The notes beneath the pieces are model-generated. The model did not search any database and was not told the DNA's origin. It saw only the letters and a list, made by a program, of their open reading frames with translations. Of a DNA stretch of 64,000 nt, positions 14,485 to 17,681 are shown piece after piece; within the stretch, counting starts at the first letter, position 1; every line of letters begins with the position of its first letter. The translations under genes were made by a program, and so were the position numbers. This stretch comes from a virus, in IMG/VR virus record IMGVR_UViG_3300037087_000150, positions 1 through 64,000 of that record; one strand, written 5' to 3'.

Positions 14485-14521
14485 TAATATTGTAAACTAA
14501 ACCTGAAAATTTTAATATATA
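14485..14521 (+). promoter_or_regulatory. Tandem promoters: host-type TAATATTG (14485) and late-type TTAATATATA (14512)
   Basis: Both recurrent motif classes lie directly upstream of the amber-interrupted Pth2 gene; the host-type box has one mismatch. Confidence 0.6.
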
Positions 14522-14545
14522 AACAATAAACAAATAATAAAAACA

Positions 14546-14929
14546 ATGTCATAGGTACAAAAATTAACAGTCGTTTCCCGTAGAGATTTAACTCCGGGTT
14601 ATCAATCCACACAGGCAATTCACGCCGCAATCAAATTCGTTTTCGAATTCCCATAGATTGCACAGAAATGGTATCCAGATCCTTATTTAGCCGTTCTCAG
14701 TGTTGAAAACGAATCAGAGTTACAACAACTCATTCAGAAATTAGAAAATTCCAATTTAAAATATTCCATATTTAGGGAATCTGATATTGATGATCAGATC
14801 ACCGCTATCTGTATTGAGCCTTCCGATGAAACAAGACGGATAACATCCTCTTTGCCTTTAATGTTAAAAGAATATAAATCAGAAAATTTACTTGATAAAA
14901 ACAATTATAAATTAGTATTAACAAATTAA
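14546..14929 (+). CDS. Peptidyl-tRNA hydrolase type 2 (Pth2)-like protein with two in-frame TAG codons
   Basis: MS*VQKLTVVSRRDLTPGYQSTQAIHAAIKFVFEFP*IAQKWYPDPYLAVLSVENESELQQL...FRESDIDDQITAICIEP...ITSSLPL; TAG at 14552 and 14654; 127 codons to TAA, no frameshift. Confidence 0.85.
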
Positions 14930-14943
14930 AAAAAAAAGAAATT

Positions 14944-15429
14944 ATGAAAACTATTAAAGAAAATCAATTAGTCGCAACAAATCAGGAAGTTGAAATGTAT
15001 GTTACCGAAGATGGTCATAAATTTCGTACCGTAGAAGAAGCCAAAAAACATGAGGAACTTCTCGAAAGGGTAAAAGAATTTAATGAAAAGTATAAGGTAA
15101 AAGAAATAGATCCTGATGATTACGGTATTAATTCTTCCAATTGTATTTCCTCTGTTGCTTTATACATTGAAGAATTAAACGAAGAAACAATTCAGGATTT
15201 AACATCAAAGTACCCTTATTTAAAAGAGAGTGAGAGATTATTAGAAAGAATCAAAACAGGTTGGAATATCATTATTGAAGAAGAATATGATTCTAATTGT
15301 ATTGGAAGATGGTCTGGATATGAGTTAAATATCTATCATCCTGAGGATATTATCGAAGAAAGAAAAGAACAAATTGAAAAATTAAACAAATTAGTCGAAA
15401 ACACAAAAAATTTAACGAAAGGAGAATAA
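14944..15429 (+). CDS. Hypothetical protein
   Basis: 161-aa ORF directly after the Pth2-like gene. Confidence 0.7.
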   Translation: MKTIKENQLVATNQEVEMYVTEDGHKFRTVEEAKKHEELLERVKEFNEKYKVKEIDPDDYGINSSNCISSVALYIEELNEETIQDLTSKYPYLKESERLLERIKTGWNIIIEEEYDSNCIGRWSGYELNIYHPEDIIEERKEQIEKLNKLVENTKNLTKGE

Positions 15430-15432
15430 ATT

Positions 15433-15798
15433 ATGAACCGTGAAAGACAAAAATTACAGGTTGACCTTGGAAAAGAGTGGGTTTCTTCTGGAAGTATCGA
15501 GGACTTAAAAGAAATGATTCAGAGATACGAAGAACTTGGAGCTGTCGGATACTATATCGGACCGGAATGGGATCGTTGTGGTGATTATGACGCTACTTAT
15601 ATTGAATTCTACGGAGAAAGACCTGAAACCGATGACGAATACAATGCTCGAATCAAAAGAGAGGAAGAAAATGAAAAGAAAAGAATCGAGGAAGAAAAGA
15701 AAAGAAAAGAAGAAGAAATCAGAAAACAGAATGAAAAGGATATGAAAGAATTAGAAACATATCTTAAATTAAAAGAAAAATTTGAAGGGAGAAAATAA
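15433..15798 (+). CDS. Hypothetical coiled-coil protein
   Basis: AAAGGAG SD; charged helical C-terminus. Confidence 0.7.
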   Translation: MNRERQKLQVDLGKEWVSSGSIEDLKEMIQRYEELGAVGYYIGPEWDRCGDYDATYIEFYGERPETDDEYNARIKREEENEKKRIEEEKKRKEEEIRKQNEKDMKELETYLKLKEKFEGRK

Positions 15799-15800
15799 TT

Positions 15801-16253
15801 ATGGAAAAACTATTTGAAAAAATTAAAGAATCATTTAATCTTTTAGATCTTCAAGAAGATTGGGATGATGAAGGTGCAAAACCAATATCAGAAATAGCTT
15901 TCGCTAGAATGATGAAATTTTTTAGTTATTTGATTTCCGAAGAAATTAAGAGTGATGATGAATTGGAGATAAATCCATGTAGAGACTCATCAATTGATTT
16001 ATCATGGAGAAAAAATATCGAACCTACTATTGTTCCCTATGGTGATGGATCAATAGACATCTGTTTACCGAATTTAAAAGAAATGAGATTATTAATAAAC
16101 ATATCAGATAAAAGAATGGGTTGGTATGGTGATATCAGAACAGATAAAAAAGATATTACTGGTGATTTTCCAACAAAAGGTGAACAGGAAGAAATTTATA
16201 GTGAAGAATTACTTAATTGGATAAAAAATCATATAGGAAAGGAGGAATTATGA
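15801..16253 (+). CDS. Hypothetical protein
   Basis: 150-aa ORF, EDWDDEGAKPI motif. Confidence 0.7.
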   Translation: MEKLFEKIKESFNLLDLQEDWDDEGAKPISEIAFARMMKFFSYLISEEIKSDDELEINPCRDSSIDLSWRKNIEPTIVPYGDGSIDICLPNLKEMRLLINISDKRMGWYGDIRTDKKDITGDFPTKGEQEEIYSEELLNWIKNHIGKEEL

Positions 16254-16672
16254 AACCAATGTTCGGGAAAGATTTAGATATTTTGAGAAGAACAGCATTG
16301 AGATTGATTTCTAAAACACCAACAAATTTAAATAGAAATCCTTTATTCAAAAAAATAACTCCTTTTATTACAGATCCAGTAAATATAAGGTTTAAAGAGC
16401 ATATAAAATGTTTTACTCGATTTTTTGAAAAGAATTTCGGAATGATCCAAACAGATAAATATTTAATAATTAATGTTATAGAAGATGACACATTATTAAT
16501 TGAATGGATTTTTCCAAATTTTAGATTTGGTTTTTCGATGGAAAAGGATCTGAATGAATCGAGTTATTATTTTATATCAAAGAAAAATTATGGTGAAACA
16601 ACCGTATCTGGATTAATTAATGATACATTTGGGGATGATTTAATAAAAGTTATTGTTAAAAAAATATTTTAA
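16250..16672 (+). CDS. Hypothetical protein
   Basis: ATG 16250 with AAAGGAGG SD, ATGA-coupled. Confidence 0.65.
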   Translation: MKPMFGKDLDILRRTALRLISKTPTNLNRNPLFKKITPFITDPVNIRFKEHIKCFTRFFEKNFGMIQTDKYLIINVIEDDTLLIEWIFPNFRFGFSMEKDLNESSYYFISKKNYGETTVSGLINDTFGDDLIKVIVKKIF

Positions 16673-16673
16673 A

Positions 16674-16829
16674 ATGAATAAAGACGAAAAAATTAATTTG
16701 CTATTGAAGTTTATAAAGTTTTATGAAAAATTTTATAAAAACGGTAATCCATATGAACACCTACCAGTAAATTCAGATATAGAATGTATAATTGAATTTA
16801 TTGAAAGTAATTGGAAAAAACTAAAATAA
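16674..16829 (+). CDS. Small hypothetical protein (51 aa)
   Basis: MNKDEKINLLLKF...NWKKLK fills the operon gap. Confidence 0.55.
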   Translation: MNKDEKINLLLKFIKFYEKFYKNGNPYEHLPVNSDIECIIEFIESNWKKLK

Positions 16830-16844
16830 AGAAAGGAGATGATT

Positions 16845-16868
16845 ATGTCATAGACAAGGCCGCCTTAA
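16845..16868 (+). promoter_or_regulatory. Putative leader minigene M-S-amber-T-R-P-P-ochre
   Basis: AAAGGAG SD 6 nt before ATG TCA TAG ACA AGG CCG CCT TAA; first 9 nt identical to the Pth2-like gene. Confidence 0.7.
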
Positions 16869-16883
16869 TGGGTTTCCATAACA

Positions 16884-16960
16884 GAAAAAGGTTAAATTGA
16901 ATCACCTTTTTCGAAATCGGATGATTTCAAAGGTAAATCGGAAGATTATCGGAAGATTTC
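16884..16960 (+). promoter_or_regulatory. Structured leader: 9-bp hairpin plus three ATC-GGAW-GAT hairpins
   Basis: GAAAAAGGT/ACCTTTTTC (16884-16912); ATCGGA(T/A)GATT at 16916, 16937, 16948. Confidence 0.6.
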
Positions 16961-16986
16961 AATATCAAAAAATAAATATAATTTTT

Positions 16987-17463
16987 ATGGAAACAACAAT
17001 AATATCAAAAGAAAAAATTCTTCCGGCCTTTTATGGTACGAAAGGATATACCTATAATAAGGTAGAATTACAAAACAGAATCATTGACGCTATTTCTAAA
17101 ATTGAAGATTGGTGTAAAGAAAATGATTATAGAATTGAGGGTTTACCAGTTGGGTTATACAAAGTAAAATTGGCATTATCAACTAATGACCAAGTTTCTA
17201 AAACTCAATTAAAAAAAATCAATAAATATATCATTGGGTTGGAGAAACACATTACAATGTATAAATCCAACAAGTTCTTTCAATTATTAACTGAAACCTG
17301 TGGTTATAAACCTGTTAAAATTAAGTACTCCGAGAAAGAGGAAAAAATTCAGGAAGCCAGAAAGCAAATGTTAAAGGCTAAAGAAGCTTATGAAACTATG
17401 TTAAAGGTTTATAAGGAAGAAAAAGGTGATTATTACAAAAAAAGGATGAAAATCCAGAATTAA
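16987..17463 (+). CDS. Basic hypothetical protein downstream of the amber leader
   Basis: ATG 16987 (METTIISKE); the ORF-track extension runs through the structured leader. Confidence 0.75.
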   Translation: METTIISKEKILPAFYGTKGYTYNKVELQNRIIDAISKIEDWCKENDYRIEGLPVGLYKVKLALSTNDQVSKTQLKKINKYIIGLEKHITMYKSNKFFQLLTETCGYKPVKIKYSEKEEKIQEARKQMLKAKEAYETMLKVYKEEKGDYYKKRMKIQN

Positions 17464-17494
17464 TAAACCAGTGGATAATCTCAGGATTATCCAT

Positions 17495-17565
17495 CATTCG
17501 GTAGTTAAATGGCATAACAGTGGTCCCTAAAACCGAAATTATGGGTTCGACCCCCATCCGAATGA
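17495..17565 (+). tRNA. tRNA with CUA anticodon (amber suppressor-like), C33
   Basis: Acceptor CATTCGG/CCGAATG; D arm GTTA-AATGGCA-TAAC; anticodon arm GTGGT-CCCTAAA-ACCGA; T arm ATGGG-TTCGACC-CCCAT; no encoded CCA. Confidence 0.85.
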
Positions 17566-17609
17566 CAATAAATTTTTTTATATCAAAATTTTTCGTAATT
17601 TTGTATTAT

Positions 17610-17681
17610 CCTTTGGTAGCTCAACTGGTAGAGTAGAGGACCCTAAACCCTTTGATGCGGGTTCGAATCCCGTCCATCGGT
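17610..17681 (+). tRNA. Second tRNA with CUA anticodon, C33, imperfect acceptor stem
   Basis: CCTTTGG/CCATCGG (2 mismatches); GCTC-AACTGGTA-GAGT; GAGGA-CCCTAAA-CCCTT; GCGGG-TTCGAAT-CCCGT; own TAATTTTG box at 17596. Confidence 0.75.

What the first reader, a model, noticed from the sequence alone, without database searches (positions are those of the whole stretch)
14485..17681. Self-contained amber (UAG) readthrough module: TAG-gated Pth2, TAG leader minigene and two CUA tRNAs in a standard-code phage
Seen: one co-oriented 3.2-kb unit starts with a Pth2-like gene containing two in-frame TAGs, contains an SD-led minigene with the identical ATG TCA TAG start, and ends with two tRNAs whose anticodon loops read CUA. 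All long genes in the window are intact under code 11, and by my count only three (ending 9629, 11245, 42795) stop at TAG, so this is not genome-wide recoding. Known: recoded phages reassign TAG broadly; two-codon minigenes such as lambda bar cause peptidyl-tRNA drop-off that needs Pth. Inference: a regulatory circuit in which competition between RF1 and suppressor tRNA at UAG switches on a translation-rescue enzyme and the downstream gene, for example when host termination or tRNA pools are disturbed.
Basis: partly seen in the sequence, partly recalled or inferred. Interest (0 to 1): 0.95.

Follow-up and report, generated by a model that had tools for sequence, protein, structure and literature searches.

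The report
Suppressor-tRNA-keyed phage translation switch
A fragment of a giant phage that otherwise uses the normal genetic code carries its own UAG-reading tRNAs beside a tRNA-hydrolase-like gene and a tiny leader gene that can be read to the end only if UAG is overridden, a layout shared by many other phages that looks like a natural switch driven by stop-codon read-through.

Summary
Window 14546-14929 encodes a Pth2-like protein with in-frame TAG at codons 3 and 37. Positions 16845-16868 hold a Shine-Dalgarno-led leader, M-S-TAG-T-R-P-P-TAA. Two CUA tRNAs lie at 17495-17566 and 17610-17682.

No other gene of the 85.9-kb contig needs TAG read-through, but the contig is only about 14% of a giant-phage genome. 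TAG ends 4 of 118 genes, against 31 for TGA.

The module recurs widely. 39 of 53 distinct Pth2-like genes carry TAG at codons 3-9. 69 of 80 distinct copies of the unknown gene "X" (window 16987-17463) follow a stop-gated leader ending in Pro.

In one lineage all parts switched together: Pth2 codon 3 and leader codon 3 are TAA, and the tRNA anticodon is UUA.

The 10 bases after the leader stop pair with the X start codon region in 17 of 17 aligned leaders. This suggests a read-through ribosome pausing at Pro-Pro-stop unmasks X.

What X and the hydrolase do is unknown. I found no description in the papers searched. This scan has noted the same module before on other DNA (68 notes, at least 56 genomes). 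Structure prediction, complex prediction and read mapping were unavailable.

The parts
14512..14522 (+). Promoter-like motif TTAATATATAA about 25-30 nt upstream of the Pth2-like start codon
   Evidence: Read. The same or a near-identical motif lies at about -28 in L001, L013, L015, L016, L017, L020 and L009. Its function is inferred only. The sigma-70 scan was uninformative: 19 sites against 20.3 expected.
14546..14929 (+). Pth2-like gene, 127 codons, with in-frame TAG at codon 3 (14552-14554) and codon 37 (14654-14656); stop TAA
   Evidence: Translation. Pfam PTH2 30.2 bits against cut-off 23. A profile of 9 homologues matches solved Pth2 structures: 24bt_A E 7.9e-9, 2zv3_A 3.2e-7. An early TAG is kept in 39 of 53 distinct homologues. 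The codon-37 TAG is shared with L001 and L020.
14944..16829 (+). Five small co-oriented genes of unknown function between the Pth2-like gene and the leader (14944-15429, 15433-15798, 15801-16253, 16247-16672, 16674-16829); variable cargo
   Evidence: ORFs. No Pfam or PHROG family with a known function. Their number differs between loci: the distance from Pth2 to X ranges from about 390 to about 2600 nt.
16832..16838 (+). Shine-Dalgarno sequence AAAGGAG of the leader
   Evidence: Read. A GGAG-type sequence lies within 14 nt of the leader ATG in 16 of 29 distinct leaders (my count from the table).
16845..16868 (+). Leader ORF M-S-TAG-T-R-P-P-TAA; TAG at 16851-16853, Pro-Pro at 16860-16865
   Evidence: Read. 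Homologous leaders sit upstream of X in 69 of 80 distinct loci. 21 of 29 distinct IMG/VR leaders end Pro-Pro-stop, and all four Pro codons are used at both positions.
16872..16881 (+). Anti-start segment GTTTCCATAA, 3 nt after the leader stop, complementary to the X start region
   Evidence: Duplex of -12.9 kcal/mol, 7 of 13,980 windows pair as well. It is the only consensus helix RNAalifold finds in 17 leaders, with 0 broken pairs. It is present in the minimum-energy fold of 16866-17004, z -3.72.
16884..16912 (+). Internal hairpin AAAAAGGT / ACCTTTTT inside the leader-to-X spacer
   Evidence: Minimum-energy folds. The spacer differs in sequence and length (52-155 nt) between loci. Not flagged as terminator-like. 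Role unknown.
16985..16994 (+). X start region TTATGGAAAC (ATG at 16987-16989), the partner of the anti-start segment
16987..17463 (+). Gene X, 158 aa, unknown function, conserved C-terminal Y-K-x-E-K-G-D-(F/Y)-Y-K
   Evidence: Alignment A4. 322 cluster representatives at E up to 0.001 in 1.84 billion proteins. No hit in Pfam, PHROGs, NCBIfam or PDB sequences. A Pth2-like gene lies upstream in 56 of 57 loci that hold at least 2700 nt upstream of X.
17472..17493 (+). 9-bp hairpin directly before the first tRNA
   Evidence: The terminator-like scan lists this inverted repeat on the minus strand. Hairpins in the same place are seen by eye in L001 and L003/L013. Role unknown.
17495..17566 (+). tRNA with anticodon CUA and anticodon loop CCCUAAA (C at position 33)
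   Evidence: ARAGORN; Rfam 53.2 bits with alignment.
17610..17682 (+). Second, dissimilar tRNA with anticodon CUA, loop CCCUAAA, and two mismatches in the acceptor stem
   Evidence: ARAGORN; Rfam 47.5 bits with alignment.

Best explanation
This is a conserved phage module in which a phage-encoded suppressor tRNA is the key to two translational locks.

Lock 1. The Pth2-like gene carries UAG at codon 3, and here also at codon 37. Full-length protein is made only when tRNA(CUA) outcompetes release factor 1.

Lock 2. A short leader ORF ahead of gene X carries UAG at codon 3.
- If the ribosome terminates at that UAG, the 10 bases just after the leader stay paired with the start codon region of X, and X is not translated.
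- If the UAG is read through, the ribosome runs four codons further and reaches Arg-Pro-Pro-UAA. That ending is expected to pause the ribosome.
- The paused ribosome sits on the anti-start segment and frees the X start.

The hydrolase-like protein and X are therefore produced in proportion to amber-suppression activity. The tRNA genes lie directly downstream of X.

Shown: the anatomy, its conservation, its restriction to these genes, and the co-switch of stop codon and anticodon.

Inferred: decoding of UAG by these tRNAs, the pause at Pro-Pro-stop, and the unmasking.

Guess, about 1 in 4: the purpose is to supply a peptidyl-tRNA or tRNA-end enzyme and its partner X exactly when phage-driven read-through of stop codons loads the cell with aberrant translation complexes.
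For: 1. The in-frame stops are selected, not decay. 39 of 53 distinct Pth2-like genes have TAG at codon 3 (28), 4 (8), 5 (1) or 9 (2). The next base is a purine in all 39. Only 6 of 39 have any in-frame ATG, GTG or TTG between the TAG and the conserved core.
2. Five genes (window, L001, L020, L024, L028) carry a second internal TAG. Three genes without an early TAG have one inside the domain: L040, L041, L046.
3. The locks are specific. The contig has 0 other genes needing TAG read-through. In LR756501, coding density over 4 x 50 kb is 0.92-0.96 under code 11 and does not rise when TAG is read through. Capsid and portal genes of LR756501, LR756500 and pT24 have no internal stops.
4. The tRNA is linked. 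CUA is the commonest anticodon in the 53 loci, 36 of 205 tRNAs. 30 of 53 loci hold one, and in 15 loci CUA tRNAs are the only tRNAs.
5. Key and lock co-vary. Leader gate against linked suppressor anticodon: TAG with CUA in 51 loci, TAA with UUA in 1, none discordant. Pth2 early stop against leader gate: TAG-TAG 49, TAA-TAA 1, none-TAG 1.
6. In the ochre lineage (L091 and L141, 1997 of 2001 aligned positions identical), the leader's terminal stop also changed from TAA to TAG.
7. The leader is translated past the gate. 21 of 29 distinct leaders end Pro-Pro-stop. First Pro codon: CCG 11, CCA 6, CCT 3, CCC 1. Second Pro codon: CCA 10, CCT 7, CCG 3, CCC 1 (my count).
8. The anti-start helix is conserved. 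It is the only consensus helix in 17 leaders, with 170 of 170 cells paired, while the spacer varies. My count: the leader-adjacent window ranks among the best 10 of about 5,000-14,000 windows in 16 of 29 distinct leaders.
9. Cognate leader and X-start pairs fold at a mean of -9.95 kcal/mol against -7.88 for non-cognate pairs. 0 of 20,000 permutations reached the cognate mean.
10. TAG is avoided as a stop, 4 against 31 TGA. My arithmetic gives a one-sided binomial P of about 2e-6. This fits a phage that lives with amber suppression.
Against: - Nothing shows directly that the tRNAs are charged or decode UAG.
- Both window tRNAs have C instead of the near-universal U at position 33, and the second has two acceptor-stem mismatches. 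They could be weak or conditional suppressors.
- The amino acid inserted is unknown. The residue aligned to the codon-37 TAG is H, E, E, V, D, E or T in homologues.
- The anti-start helix is weak or absent in about 10 of 29 distinct leaders, including L001 and L020/L090.
- Within the 17-sequence alignment there are no double compensatory changes, only 11 one-sided G-U changes.
- The cognate-versus-non-cognate test does not correct for relatedness of the loci.
- 11 of 80 X genes lack a detectable gated leader.
- 16 of 39 loci with an early TAG show no CUA tRNA within about 5 kb.
- The ochre co-switch is one lineage seen in two assemblies. One of them has a 1-nt deletion in the Pth2-like gene.
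- The leaders are only 7-12 residues, shorter than most proven arrest peptides.
- The contig is 14% of a genome, so recoded genes elsewhere cannot be excluded for this phage itself.
Confidence: 0.65

Rival explanations
1. The phage is an ordinary TAG-recoded ('code 15') phage, and the Pth2-like gene and leader are two of many recoded genes. The window simply covers the part of the genome written in standard code.
For: Relatives of this clade (Lak phages) are reported to reassign TAG (Al-Shayeb 2020, passages read; Borges preprint, passages read). The contig is only 14% of a genome. TAG is depleted as a stop. CUA tRNAs are present.
Against: No other gene in 85.9 kb needs TAG read-through. The complete 735-kb relative with the same module shows no gain in coding density with TAG read through in 200 of 735 kb. 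The late structural genes gp23 and gp20, the usual recoded class, have no internal stops in three complete relatives. The TAG sits at the same early codon across 39 distinct genes, which broad recoding does not predict.
Confidence: 0.05
2. The ATG-NNN-TAG is a tiny upstream ORF. The real protein starts by re-initiation at the next codon, often ATT, so no suppressor tRNA is needed and the tRNA linkage is incidental.
For: The codon after TAG is ATT in 25, ATA in 1 and ATG in 1 of 39 genes. All three are permitted starts in table 11.
Against: 12 of 39 genes, including the window (GTA), have GTA, GTT, AAC, AGC or AAA after TAG. Eight genes have TAG deep inside the ORF. The gate codon changes to TAA exactly where the tRNA anticodon changes to UUA. 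The leader peptide is conserved at the amino-acid level after the gate.
Confidence: 0.07
3. Bar-like toxic minigene with antidote, which is part of the first reader's idea. The two-codon ORFs release fMet-Ser-tRNA by drop-off and starve the host of a tRNA. The phage Pth2 recycles it for the phage.
For: Both ORFs formally stop after two codons if TAG is obeyed. A peptidyl-tRNA-hydrolase-like gene is always linked. The behaviour of lambda bar minigenes is recalled, not checked here.
Against: Conservation extends beyond the TAG to a Pro-ending peptide with synonymous codon changes, which a two-codon minigene does not need. The second codon varies: S, T, K, N, L, F, I, H, R, Y. The TAG can lie at codons 4-9. 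The leader is placed so that its end, not its beginning, touches the helix that covers the X start.
Confidence: 0.08
4. Homeostat. The Pth2-like enzyme, perhaps with X, hydrolyses aminoacyl- or peptidyl-tRNA(CUA) itself. Its own UAG makes a negative feedback loop that holds suppression at a set level.
For: There is tight three-way linkage of Pth2-like gene, X and suppressor tRNA. The enzyme's own synthesis depends on the tRNA. The residues I recall as catalytic in Pth2 are altered (Lys to Tyr; Asp-Ala-Gly to Glu-x-Asp in the alignment), which could mean a changed substrate. In some phages the domain is fused to an HD-like domain with weak likeness to the CCA-adding enzyme.
Against: It shares the switch anatomy with the best explanation and differs only in the sign and target of the output.
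Confidence: 0.1
5. The TAGs are sequencing errors or the gene is a decaying pseudogene.
For: Two nonsense codons lie in a 127-codon gene that gene callers would skip.
Against: The same early TAG is present in 39 distinct homologues down to about 30% identity, from independent assemblies. There is no TAA, TGA or frameshift in the window gene.
Confidence: 0.01

Closest known systems
Stop-codon-recoded phages with their own suppressor tRNAs and 'code change modules' (Borges et al., bioRxiv 10.1101/2021.08.26.457843; passages read)
   Same: [quoted passage not shown] TAG depleted as a true stop. Standard-code relatives that already carry a suppressor tRNA.
   Different: There, 26-71% of genes are recoded, chiefly structural and lysis genes, and the code-change genes themselves are in standard code. 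Here exactly one protein gene and one leader are gated, and the gated gene is itself a translation-related enzyme next to the tRNA. The words 'peptidyl' and 'hydrolase' do not occur in that text.
Arrest-peptide and leader-peptide translational attenuators: RAPP-like peptides (SecM RAGP, ApdA/ApdP RAPP, RGPP, RGPT) and the Bacteroidota NAP-stop / NSP-stop peptides (Fujiwara et al. 2024, PMC10987492; abstract and passages read); ermC-type attenuation (recalled)
   Same: A short upstream ORF with its own ribosome-binding site. A C-terminal (K/R)-P-P-stop, R-G-P-T-stop, R-G-P-stop or x-S-P-stop. An RNA helix next to the stall site that covers the start of the downstream gene.
   Different: The input is not secretion, an antibiotic or a metabolite. 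It is whether a stop codon inside the leader is read through by a cognate suppressor tRNA. The leaders are only 7-12 codons. Stalling has not been shown.
prfB (release factor 2) autoregulation through an in-frame UGA (recalled, not checked here)
   Same: An early in-frame stop codon in a translation-factor gene makes expression depend on the balance between termination and an alternative decoding event.
   Different: prfB uses a +1 frameshift and senses its own product. Here the alternative event is decoding by a dedicated tRNA, and the product is a Pth2-like protein.
PTH2 of jumbo phages (Iyer et al. 2021, PMC7824862; passages read)
   Same: The same protein family in large phages, proposed there to hydrolyse peptidyl-tRNA during ribosome rescue after tRNA cleavage.
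   Different: That paper does not mention in-frame stop codons or leaders, and the word 'suppressor' does not occur in it.
Lambda bar minigenes (recalled)
   Same: An ATG, one sense codon and a stop, with a link to peptidyl-tRNA hydrolase.
   Different: The conserved unit here runs past the stop to a Pro-ending peptide and pairs with a downstream start codon. See the membership test.

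Membership tests
Peptidyl-tRNA hydrolase 2 (Pth2, Pfam PF01981) | Matches the family profile above the curated cut-off | tested here: met
   Pfam 30.2 bits against cut-off 23, residues 6-105 on profile positions 2-114 of 115. A profile of 9 homologues matches solved Pth2 chains 24bt_A (7.9e-9), 2zv3_A, 1rzw_A, 1wn2_A and 1q7s_A.
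Peptidyl-tRNA hydrolase 2 (Pth2, Pfam PF01981) | Reaches NCBI's equivalog cut-off, meaning the same function can be assumed | tested here: not met
   NF003314 scores 27.6 bits against cut-off 126. TIGR00283 scores 20.1 against 82.
Peptidyl-tRNA hydrolase 2 (Pth2, Pfam PF01981) | Catalytic Lys (in G-K-G-K) and Asp (in D-A-G), residues recalled from the literature | tested here: inconclusive
   In the alignments, the Lys column holds the nearly invariant Tyr of P-G-Y-Q. The D-A-G columns hold invariant Glu78 and Asp80, numbered as in the window protein. Which residues are catalytic is recalled, not taken from a call.
Peptidyl-tRNA hydrolase 2 (Pth2, Pfam PF01981) | Pth2 fold and hydrolase activity | not testable with these tools
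No assay was possible.
Amber suppressor tRNA | Cloverleaf tRNA with anticodon CUA | tested here: met
   ARAGORN and the Rfam tRNA model at 53.2 and 47.5 bits against a gathering score of 29.
Amber suppressor tRNA | Standard anticodon loop with U33 | tested here: not met
   Both window tRNAs read CCCUAAA, with C33. 32 of the 36 CUA tRNAs in related loci have U33. The other C33 cases are L030 and L046 (read from the sequences).
Amber suppressor tRNA | Its anticodon matches in-frame stops in linked genes and changes with them | tested here: met
   TAG with CUA in 51 loci, TAA with UUA in 1, 0 discordant. Ochre lineage L091/L141.
Amber suppressor tRNA | Is aminoacylated and inserts an amino acid at UAG | not testable with these tools
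Genome-wide TAG reassignment (code 15 phage) | Many genes broken by TAG; coding density rises when TAG is read as sense | tested here: not met
   Contig: 0.909 against 0.918, the gain being the Pth2-like gene and short read-through tails. LR756501, 4 x 50 kb: 0.918, 0.950, 0.964, 0.943 against 0.922, 0.924, 0.951, 0.927. This covers only 14% of this phage's genome.
Genome-wide TAG reassignment (code 15 phage) | Phage-encoded release factor 2 | tested here: not met
   The PCRF domain search found nothing in the contig. It found one gene in LR756501, of RF1 type (P-P-T) and not RF2.
Arrest-leader translational attenuator (SecM / RAPP-like / ermC type) | Short ORF with its own ribosome-binding site just upstream of the regulated gene | tested here: met
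   AAAGGAG lies 6 nt before the ATG. A leader is present in 69 of 80 distinct X loci.
Arrest-leader translational attenuator (SecM / RAPP-like / ermC type) | Conserved C-terminal arrest-type motif | tested here: met
   The ends are (K/R/N/E)-P-P-stop, R-G-P(T)-stop or x-S-P-stop. The motif classes RAPP, RGPP, RGPT and NSP-stop are listed as arrest sequences in PMC10987492.
Arrest-leader translational attenuator (SecM / RAPP-like / ermC type) | RNA helix that hides the downstream start and lies within reach of the stalled ribosome | tested here: met
   The 10-bp helix begins 3 nt after the leader stop in the window. It is conserved in 17 of 17 aligned leaders. It is weak or absent in about 10 of 29 distinct leaders.
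Arrest-leader translational attenuator (SecM / RAPP-like / ermC type) | Demonstrated ribosome stalling and induction | not testable with these tools
   This needs toeprinting or reporter assays.
Lambda bar-type minigene | Function resides in a two- or three-codon ORF ending at the first stop | tested here: not met
   Amino-acid-level conservation and synonymous variation continue after the TAG. The TAG lies at codons 3-7 of leaders.
Pyrrolysine system (ARAGORN labels the tRNAs 'tRNA-Pyl') | PylS synthetase present | tested here: not met
   TIGR02367 search: 0 of 5 records matched, namely the contig, L013's contig, LR756501, LR756500 and pT24. The label follows from the CUA anticodon alone.

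The most novel reading that the evidence does not exclude
Large phages carry a portable, orthogonal key-and-lock gene switch. A private suppressor tRNA is the key. Early in-frame stop codons in a tRNA-hydrolase-like gene, and in an arrest-type leader that unmasks a second conserved gene, are the locks. Key and locks can be re-cut together from amber to ochre. This would be a natural sensor of stop-codon read-through. It may also be the seed stage from which whole-genome stop-codon reassignment grows, with the Pth2-like protein and X as the factors that let an infected standard-code cell tolerate or exploit read-through.
Probability: 0.5. Interest if true: 0.85.

Novelty: new variant of a known kind. 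Interest (0 to 1): 0.8.

Why it matters
- It would be a natural example of gene control by competition between a release factor and a dedicated suppressor tRNA, in a virus that otherwise obeys the standard code.
- It offers a testable intermediate for how stop-codon reassignment starts: tRNA first, then one linked gene, with TAG already avoided as a stop.
- It adds a new kind of input, read-through of an internal stop, to the arrest-leader class of regulators.
- It ties two proteins of unknown role, a divergent Pth2 and the X family (322 cluster representatives), to suppressor-tRNA biology.
- The amber and ochre versions form a natural orthogonal pair that may interest people who engineer genetic codes.
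- A cultured phage, Tenacibaculum phage pT24, carries the gated gene and the tRNA. In its record the gene is annotated from an internal Met, so bench tests are within reach.

Tried and rejected
**Rejected readings**
- Sequencing error or pseudogene: rejected on conservation.
- Broad TAG recoding: rejected on coding density and on intact structural genes in relatives.
- Pyrrolysine: no PylS found.
- Strict matching of the leader dipeptide to the Pth2 dipeptide: it held in the first four loci I read, then failed. The final count is 6 of 11.
- A transcription terminator between leader and X: the scan flagged none there.

**Searches that led nowhere**
- Function of X: no family in Pfam, PHROGs or NCBIfam. 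No solved relative by sequence. The ESM Atlas gave no usable hit. The eight cluster look-ups returned one name, 'hypothetical protein'.
- Identity of the tRNAs: nearest non-CUA tRNAs in the same loci were inconsistent (His, Arg, Lys, Met, Leu and others), so no isotype is assigned.
- The sigma-70 promoter scan was at chance level.
- Sequencing runs: 17 runs were listed, 12 of them peat metagenomes holding at least 36% of the sampled words. Two metatranscriptomes held 6-9%. None could be laid on the window, so I draw no conclusion on expression or habitat.
- Supplementary files of the papers were closed. Supplementary tables of Al-Shayeb 2020, Borges 2021 and Fujiwara 2024 could mention these genes, and I could not see them.

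**Basis for 'not in print'**
- It rests on searches and on passages of five papers. No other source was checked.

**Rows dropped before counts**
- Identical or near-identical loci were merged before each count: 64 to 53 Pth2-like genes, 41 to 34 X loci, and 125 loci to 94 X genes.
- L050 and L051 were left out as the same contigs as L038 and L039.
- In one search, two of my four X queries were mis-framed. Their self-hits on L002 and L009 are not evidence. X in L009 rests. X in L002 rests on my reading.

Full report
**What is in the window**

Reading 14300-17900 shows a co-oriented unit. A 127-codon ORF at 14546-14929 starts ATG TCA TAG and has a second TAG at codon 37. It has no other stop or frameshift. 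It matches Pfam PTH2 above the curated cut-off, 30.2 against 23 bits. A profile of nine homologues matches five solved Pth2 structures, the best at E 7.9e-9.

Five small genes of unknown function follow. After them come AAAGGAG, six bases, and the leader ATG TCA TAG ACA AGG CCG CCT TAA at 16845-16868. Next is a 118-base spacer, then a 158-codon gene I call X at 16987-17463, a hairpin, and two tRNAs with anticodon CUA at 17495-17566 and 17610-17682. The tRNAs are called by ARAGORN and by the Rfam tRNA model at 53.2 and 47.5 bits. These are the only tRNAs on the whole 85,869-base contig.

**Is the rest of the genome standard code?**

The window is the first 64 kb of a single contig with 29.7% G+C. 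A greedy set of 118 ORFs covers 90.9% of it under code 11. Of these, 83 end in TAA, 31 in TGA and 4 in TAG.

Reading TAG through closes only one real gap, the Pth2-like gene. The other 'extended' ORFs I inspected are upstream or downstream tails of normal genes. TAG is therefore not broadly recoded here, and it is avoided as a stop: 4 against 31 TGA, about 2e-6 by my one-sided binomial arithmetic.

The caveat is that the record is a fragment, CheckV completeness 14%. Its topoisomerase II is 58% identical to that of the 735-kb phage LR756501, where the gene lies about 7 kb from the same module. Al-Shayeb et al. 2020 place their genomes above 634 kb in the Mahaphage clade, predicted to infect Bacteroidetes (passages read).

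In LR756501, four 50-kb samples have code-11 coding densities of 0.92-0.96. These do not rise when TAG is read through, and TAG ends 8 of 280 ORFs. The major capsid and portal genes of LR756501, LR756500 and Tenacibaculum phage pT24 have no internal stops.

**The same module elsewhere**

LR756501 carries the following:
- a Pth2-like gene, 63.6% identical, starting ATG TCG TAG, with TAG at both of the same codons;
- the leader ATG TCG TAG AGT AGG CCG CCT TAA;
- a homologue of X;
- two CUA tRNAs.

LR756500, LR756504, LR745206, LR756502 and the cultured phage pT24 all have the early TAG. In the pT24 record the CDS is annotated from an internal Met, and a 'tRNA-Sup' lies 2.6 kb upstream.

Two scans of IMG/VR with Pth2-like alignments gave 59 further loci. 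After merging identical genes there are 53 distinct Pth2-like genes:
- 39 have TAG at codon 3 (28), 4 (8), 5 (1) or 9 (2).
- A purine follows the TAG in all 39.
- Only 6 have an in-frame ATG, GTG or TTG between the TAG and the conserved core.
- Five genes have a second internal TAG.
- Three of the 14 genes without an early TAG have one inside the domain.
- 30 of the 53 loci hold a CUA tRNA, often within 250 nt of the gene (15 loci). CUA is the commonest anticodon, 36 of 205 tRNAs.

**Gene X and its leader**

X has no family in Pfam, PHROGs, NCBIfam or the PDB sequences. It does have 322 cluster representatives at E up to 0.001 among 1.84 billion proteins, nearly all stand-alone proteins of 120-160 residues.

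Scans of IMG/VR and of metagenome contigs with X gave 41 and 80 loci. Together with the window and three phage records these make 94 distinct X genes:
- A Pth2-like gene lies upstream in 56 of the 57 loci that hold at least 2700 nt upstream of X.
- 69 of the 80 with at least 240 nt upstream have a short ORF with an early stop that, if read through, ends in Pro.
- The typical forms are M-x-TAG-x-(K/R)-P-P-stop, M-K-x-x-TAG-I-x-x-R-P-P-stop and M-x-TAG-I-V-I-R-G-P-T-stop.

Such minigenes occur 30 times in the 220 nt before 34 distinct X genes and never in the other 507,152 nt of those loci. Among 29 distinct IMG/VR leaders, 21 end Pro-Pro-stop. All four Pro codons are used at both positions (my count), which speaks for selection on the peptide and hence for translation past the TAG. 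The first base after the gate is a purine in 28 of 29.

**Key and lock change together**

In L091 and L141 the Pth2-like gene starts ATG ACG TAA and the leader reads ATG ACG TAA GTA AAT AAA CCA CCG TAG. The tRNA 59-62 nt after X has anticodon UUA. These two assemblies are 1997 of 2001 aligned positions identical over 2 kb.

Two gates, the anticodon and the leader's terminal stop have thus all changed in step. L141 has an intact 120-codon gene. L091 has a 1-nt deletion in an A-run.

Over all loci that hold both features, leader gate and suppressor anticodon agree in 52 of 52. Pth2 early stop and leader gate agree in 50 of 51. The co-switch is a single lineage, but no other observation here ties the stops to the tRNA as directly.

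**How the leader may act**

In the window the ten bases GTTTCCATAA, starting 3 nt after the leader stop, are the reverse complement of TTATGGAAAC, which contains the X start codon.
- The duplex scores -12.9 kcal/mol. Only 7 of 13,980 windows in the surrounding 14 kb pair as well.
- The helix closes the minimum-energy fold of 16866-17004, at -28.9 kcal/mol, z -3.72.
- RNAalifold on 17 leaders finds this helix and nothing else. All 170 cells are paired, with 11 one-sided G-U changes and no double changes, while the spacer varies in sequence and length.

In the R-P-P leaders the anti-start overlaps the last Pro codon and the stop (CCA TAA T...), and its 3' extension follows the different bases upstream of each X start. 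Examples are L097, L098, L100 and L109.

Cognate pairs are more stable than non-cognate ones, -9.95 against -7.88 kcal/mol, and 0 of 20,000 permutations did as well. This test ignores relatedness between loci. My count is that 16 of 29 distinct leaders rank in the best 10 windows of their locus. About 10 of 29, including L001 and L020, do not show the helix and may work otherwise.

A ribosome that stops at the gate is roughly 17 nt short of the anti-start. One held at Pro-Pro-stop would cover it. The footprint sizes are from general knowledge, not from a call. C-terminal R-A-P-P-like and N-S-P-stop sequences, the latter from Bacteroidota, are experimentally proven arrest motifs (Fujiwara et al. 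2024, PMC10987492; abstract and passages read). In LR756504, X has no leader but starts 10 nt after the TAG-gated Pth2-like ORF. That placement would couple it to the same gate.

**What it is for**

This is the weak part. Iyer et al. 2021 (passages read) noted PTH2 in jumbo phages and proposed ribosome rescue after tRNA cleavage.

The family here is divergent. It falls below NCBI's equivalog cut-offs. The column I recall as the catalytic Lys holds a nearly invariant Tyr. In pT24, L063 and L068 the domain is fused to about 190 residues with weak likeness to the HD region of CCA-adding enzymes, E 4.5e-4 and 0.019, both below cut-off. This points to tRNA 3' ends.

My best guess is feed-forward coupling: the enzyme and X are made in proportion to suppression, to deal with its by-products. 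A feedback role, in which the enzyme acts on the suppressor tRNA itself, is equally open.

Both window tRNAs carry C33, and the amino acid they insert is unknown.

**Comparison with what is known**

Suppressor tRNAs, in-frame stops as timing devices, TAG depletion and 'code change modules' are described for recoded phages (Borges preprint, passages read). Arrest leaders are well known. I did not find the following described:
- a single-gene amber lock on a Pth2-like gene;
- a leader whose arrest is conditional on read-through of an internal stop;
- the X family.

This rests on five full-text searches and on passages of five papers.

This scan has noted the same module on other DNA: 68 notes in at least 56 genomes. 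Follow-up agents reached similar readings. Those are unchecked AI notes and not independent evidence. One of them gave me the lead to PMC10987492.

**Verdict**

The feature is real and conserved, and apparently undescribed in the papers I searched. I class it as a new variant of known kinds: phage stop-codon recoding combined with arrest-leader attenuation. Interest is 0.8. Confidence in the switch mechanism is about 0.65, and in any particular physiological role about 0.25.

Noticed in passing
window 17495-17566 and 17610-17682: Both CUA tRNAs, although dissimilar in body, have the anticodon loop CCCUAAA with C at position 33 instead of the near-universal U. Among 36 CUA tRNAs of related loci, only L030 and L046 share this. 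The closest relative, L013, has U33.
   Followed up: partly
L193 666-1349 minus strand (LR756501 358465-359148); L194, L195, L196: The 735-kb relative encodes a release-factor-like protein with a P-P-T tripeptide (RF1 type, by recall) and G-G-Q, interrupted by two in-frame TGA. Homologues in three other giant phages keep in-frame TGA at shared positions: after 'SI' in 3 of 4, and after a preceding E or H in 2 of 4. This is a second stop-codon-interrupted translation-factor gene in the clade. It is not present on the window's contig.
   Followed up: partly
L091 3832-3858 and 4446-4520; L141 1664 onward: Ochre version of the whole module: TAA gates, UUA tRNA, and a leader ending in TAG. The Pth2-like gene of L141 ends with two TAA in tandem.
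   Followed up: yes
L012 3950-4900 (pT24), L063 4983-5897, L068 4968-5906: In some phages the TAG-gated Pth2-like domain is fused to a conserved C-terminal domain of about 190 residues with an H-D-x-G-K-like motif. It gives weak sub-threshold hits to CCA tRNA nucleotidyltransferase and to HDIG.
   Followed up: partly
L002 3912-4098: A tRNA-like sequence whose acceptor halves pair but are separated by roughly 110-140 bases, just before the CUA tRNA. It may be an intron-containing or disrupted tRNA. Seen by eye only.
   Followed up: no
window 17472-17493; L001 about 5445-5470; L003 about 3540-3557: A hairpin sits directly upstream of the first suppressor tRNA in three loci, with different sequences in each. 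It could be a processing or termination signal.
   Followed up: no
window 1 to about 100 and about 674 onward: The first 100 bases of the contig, but not the first 200, recur at offset 673 as a direct repeat.
   Followed up: no
window 9114-9629, 10547-11245, 42520-42795; contig 78779-81103: The four TAG-terminated genes have a second in-frame stop 3, 16, 4 and 2 codons further on, so read-through would add only short tails.
   Followed up: partly
window 11747-11965: Another ATG-GAT-TAG start opens a 72-codon frame in a 347-base gene-free gap. An internal Met at codon 16 may be the real start. Not conserved as far as I checked.
   Followed up: no
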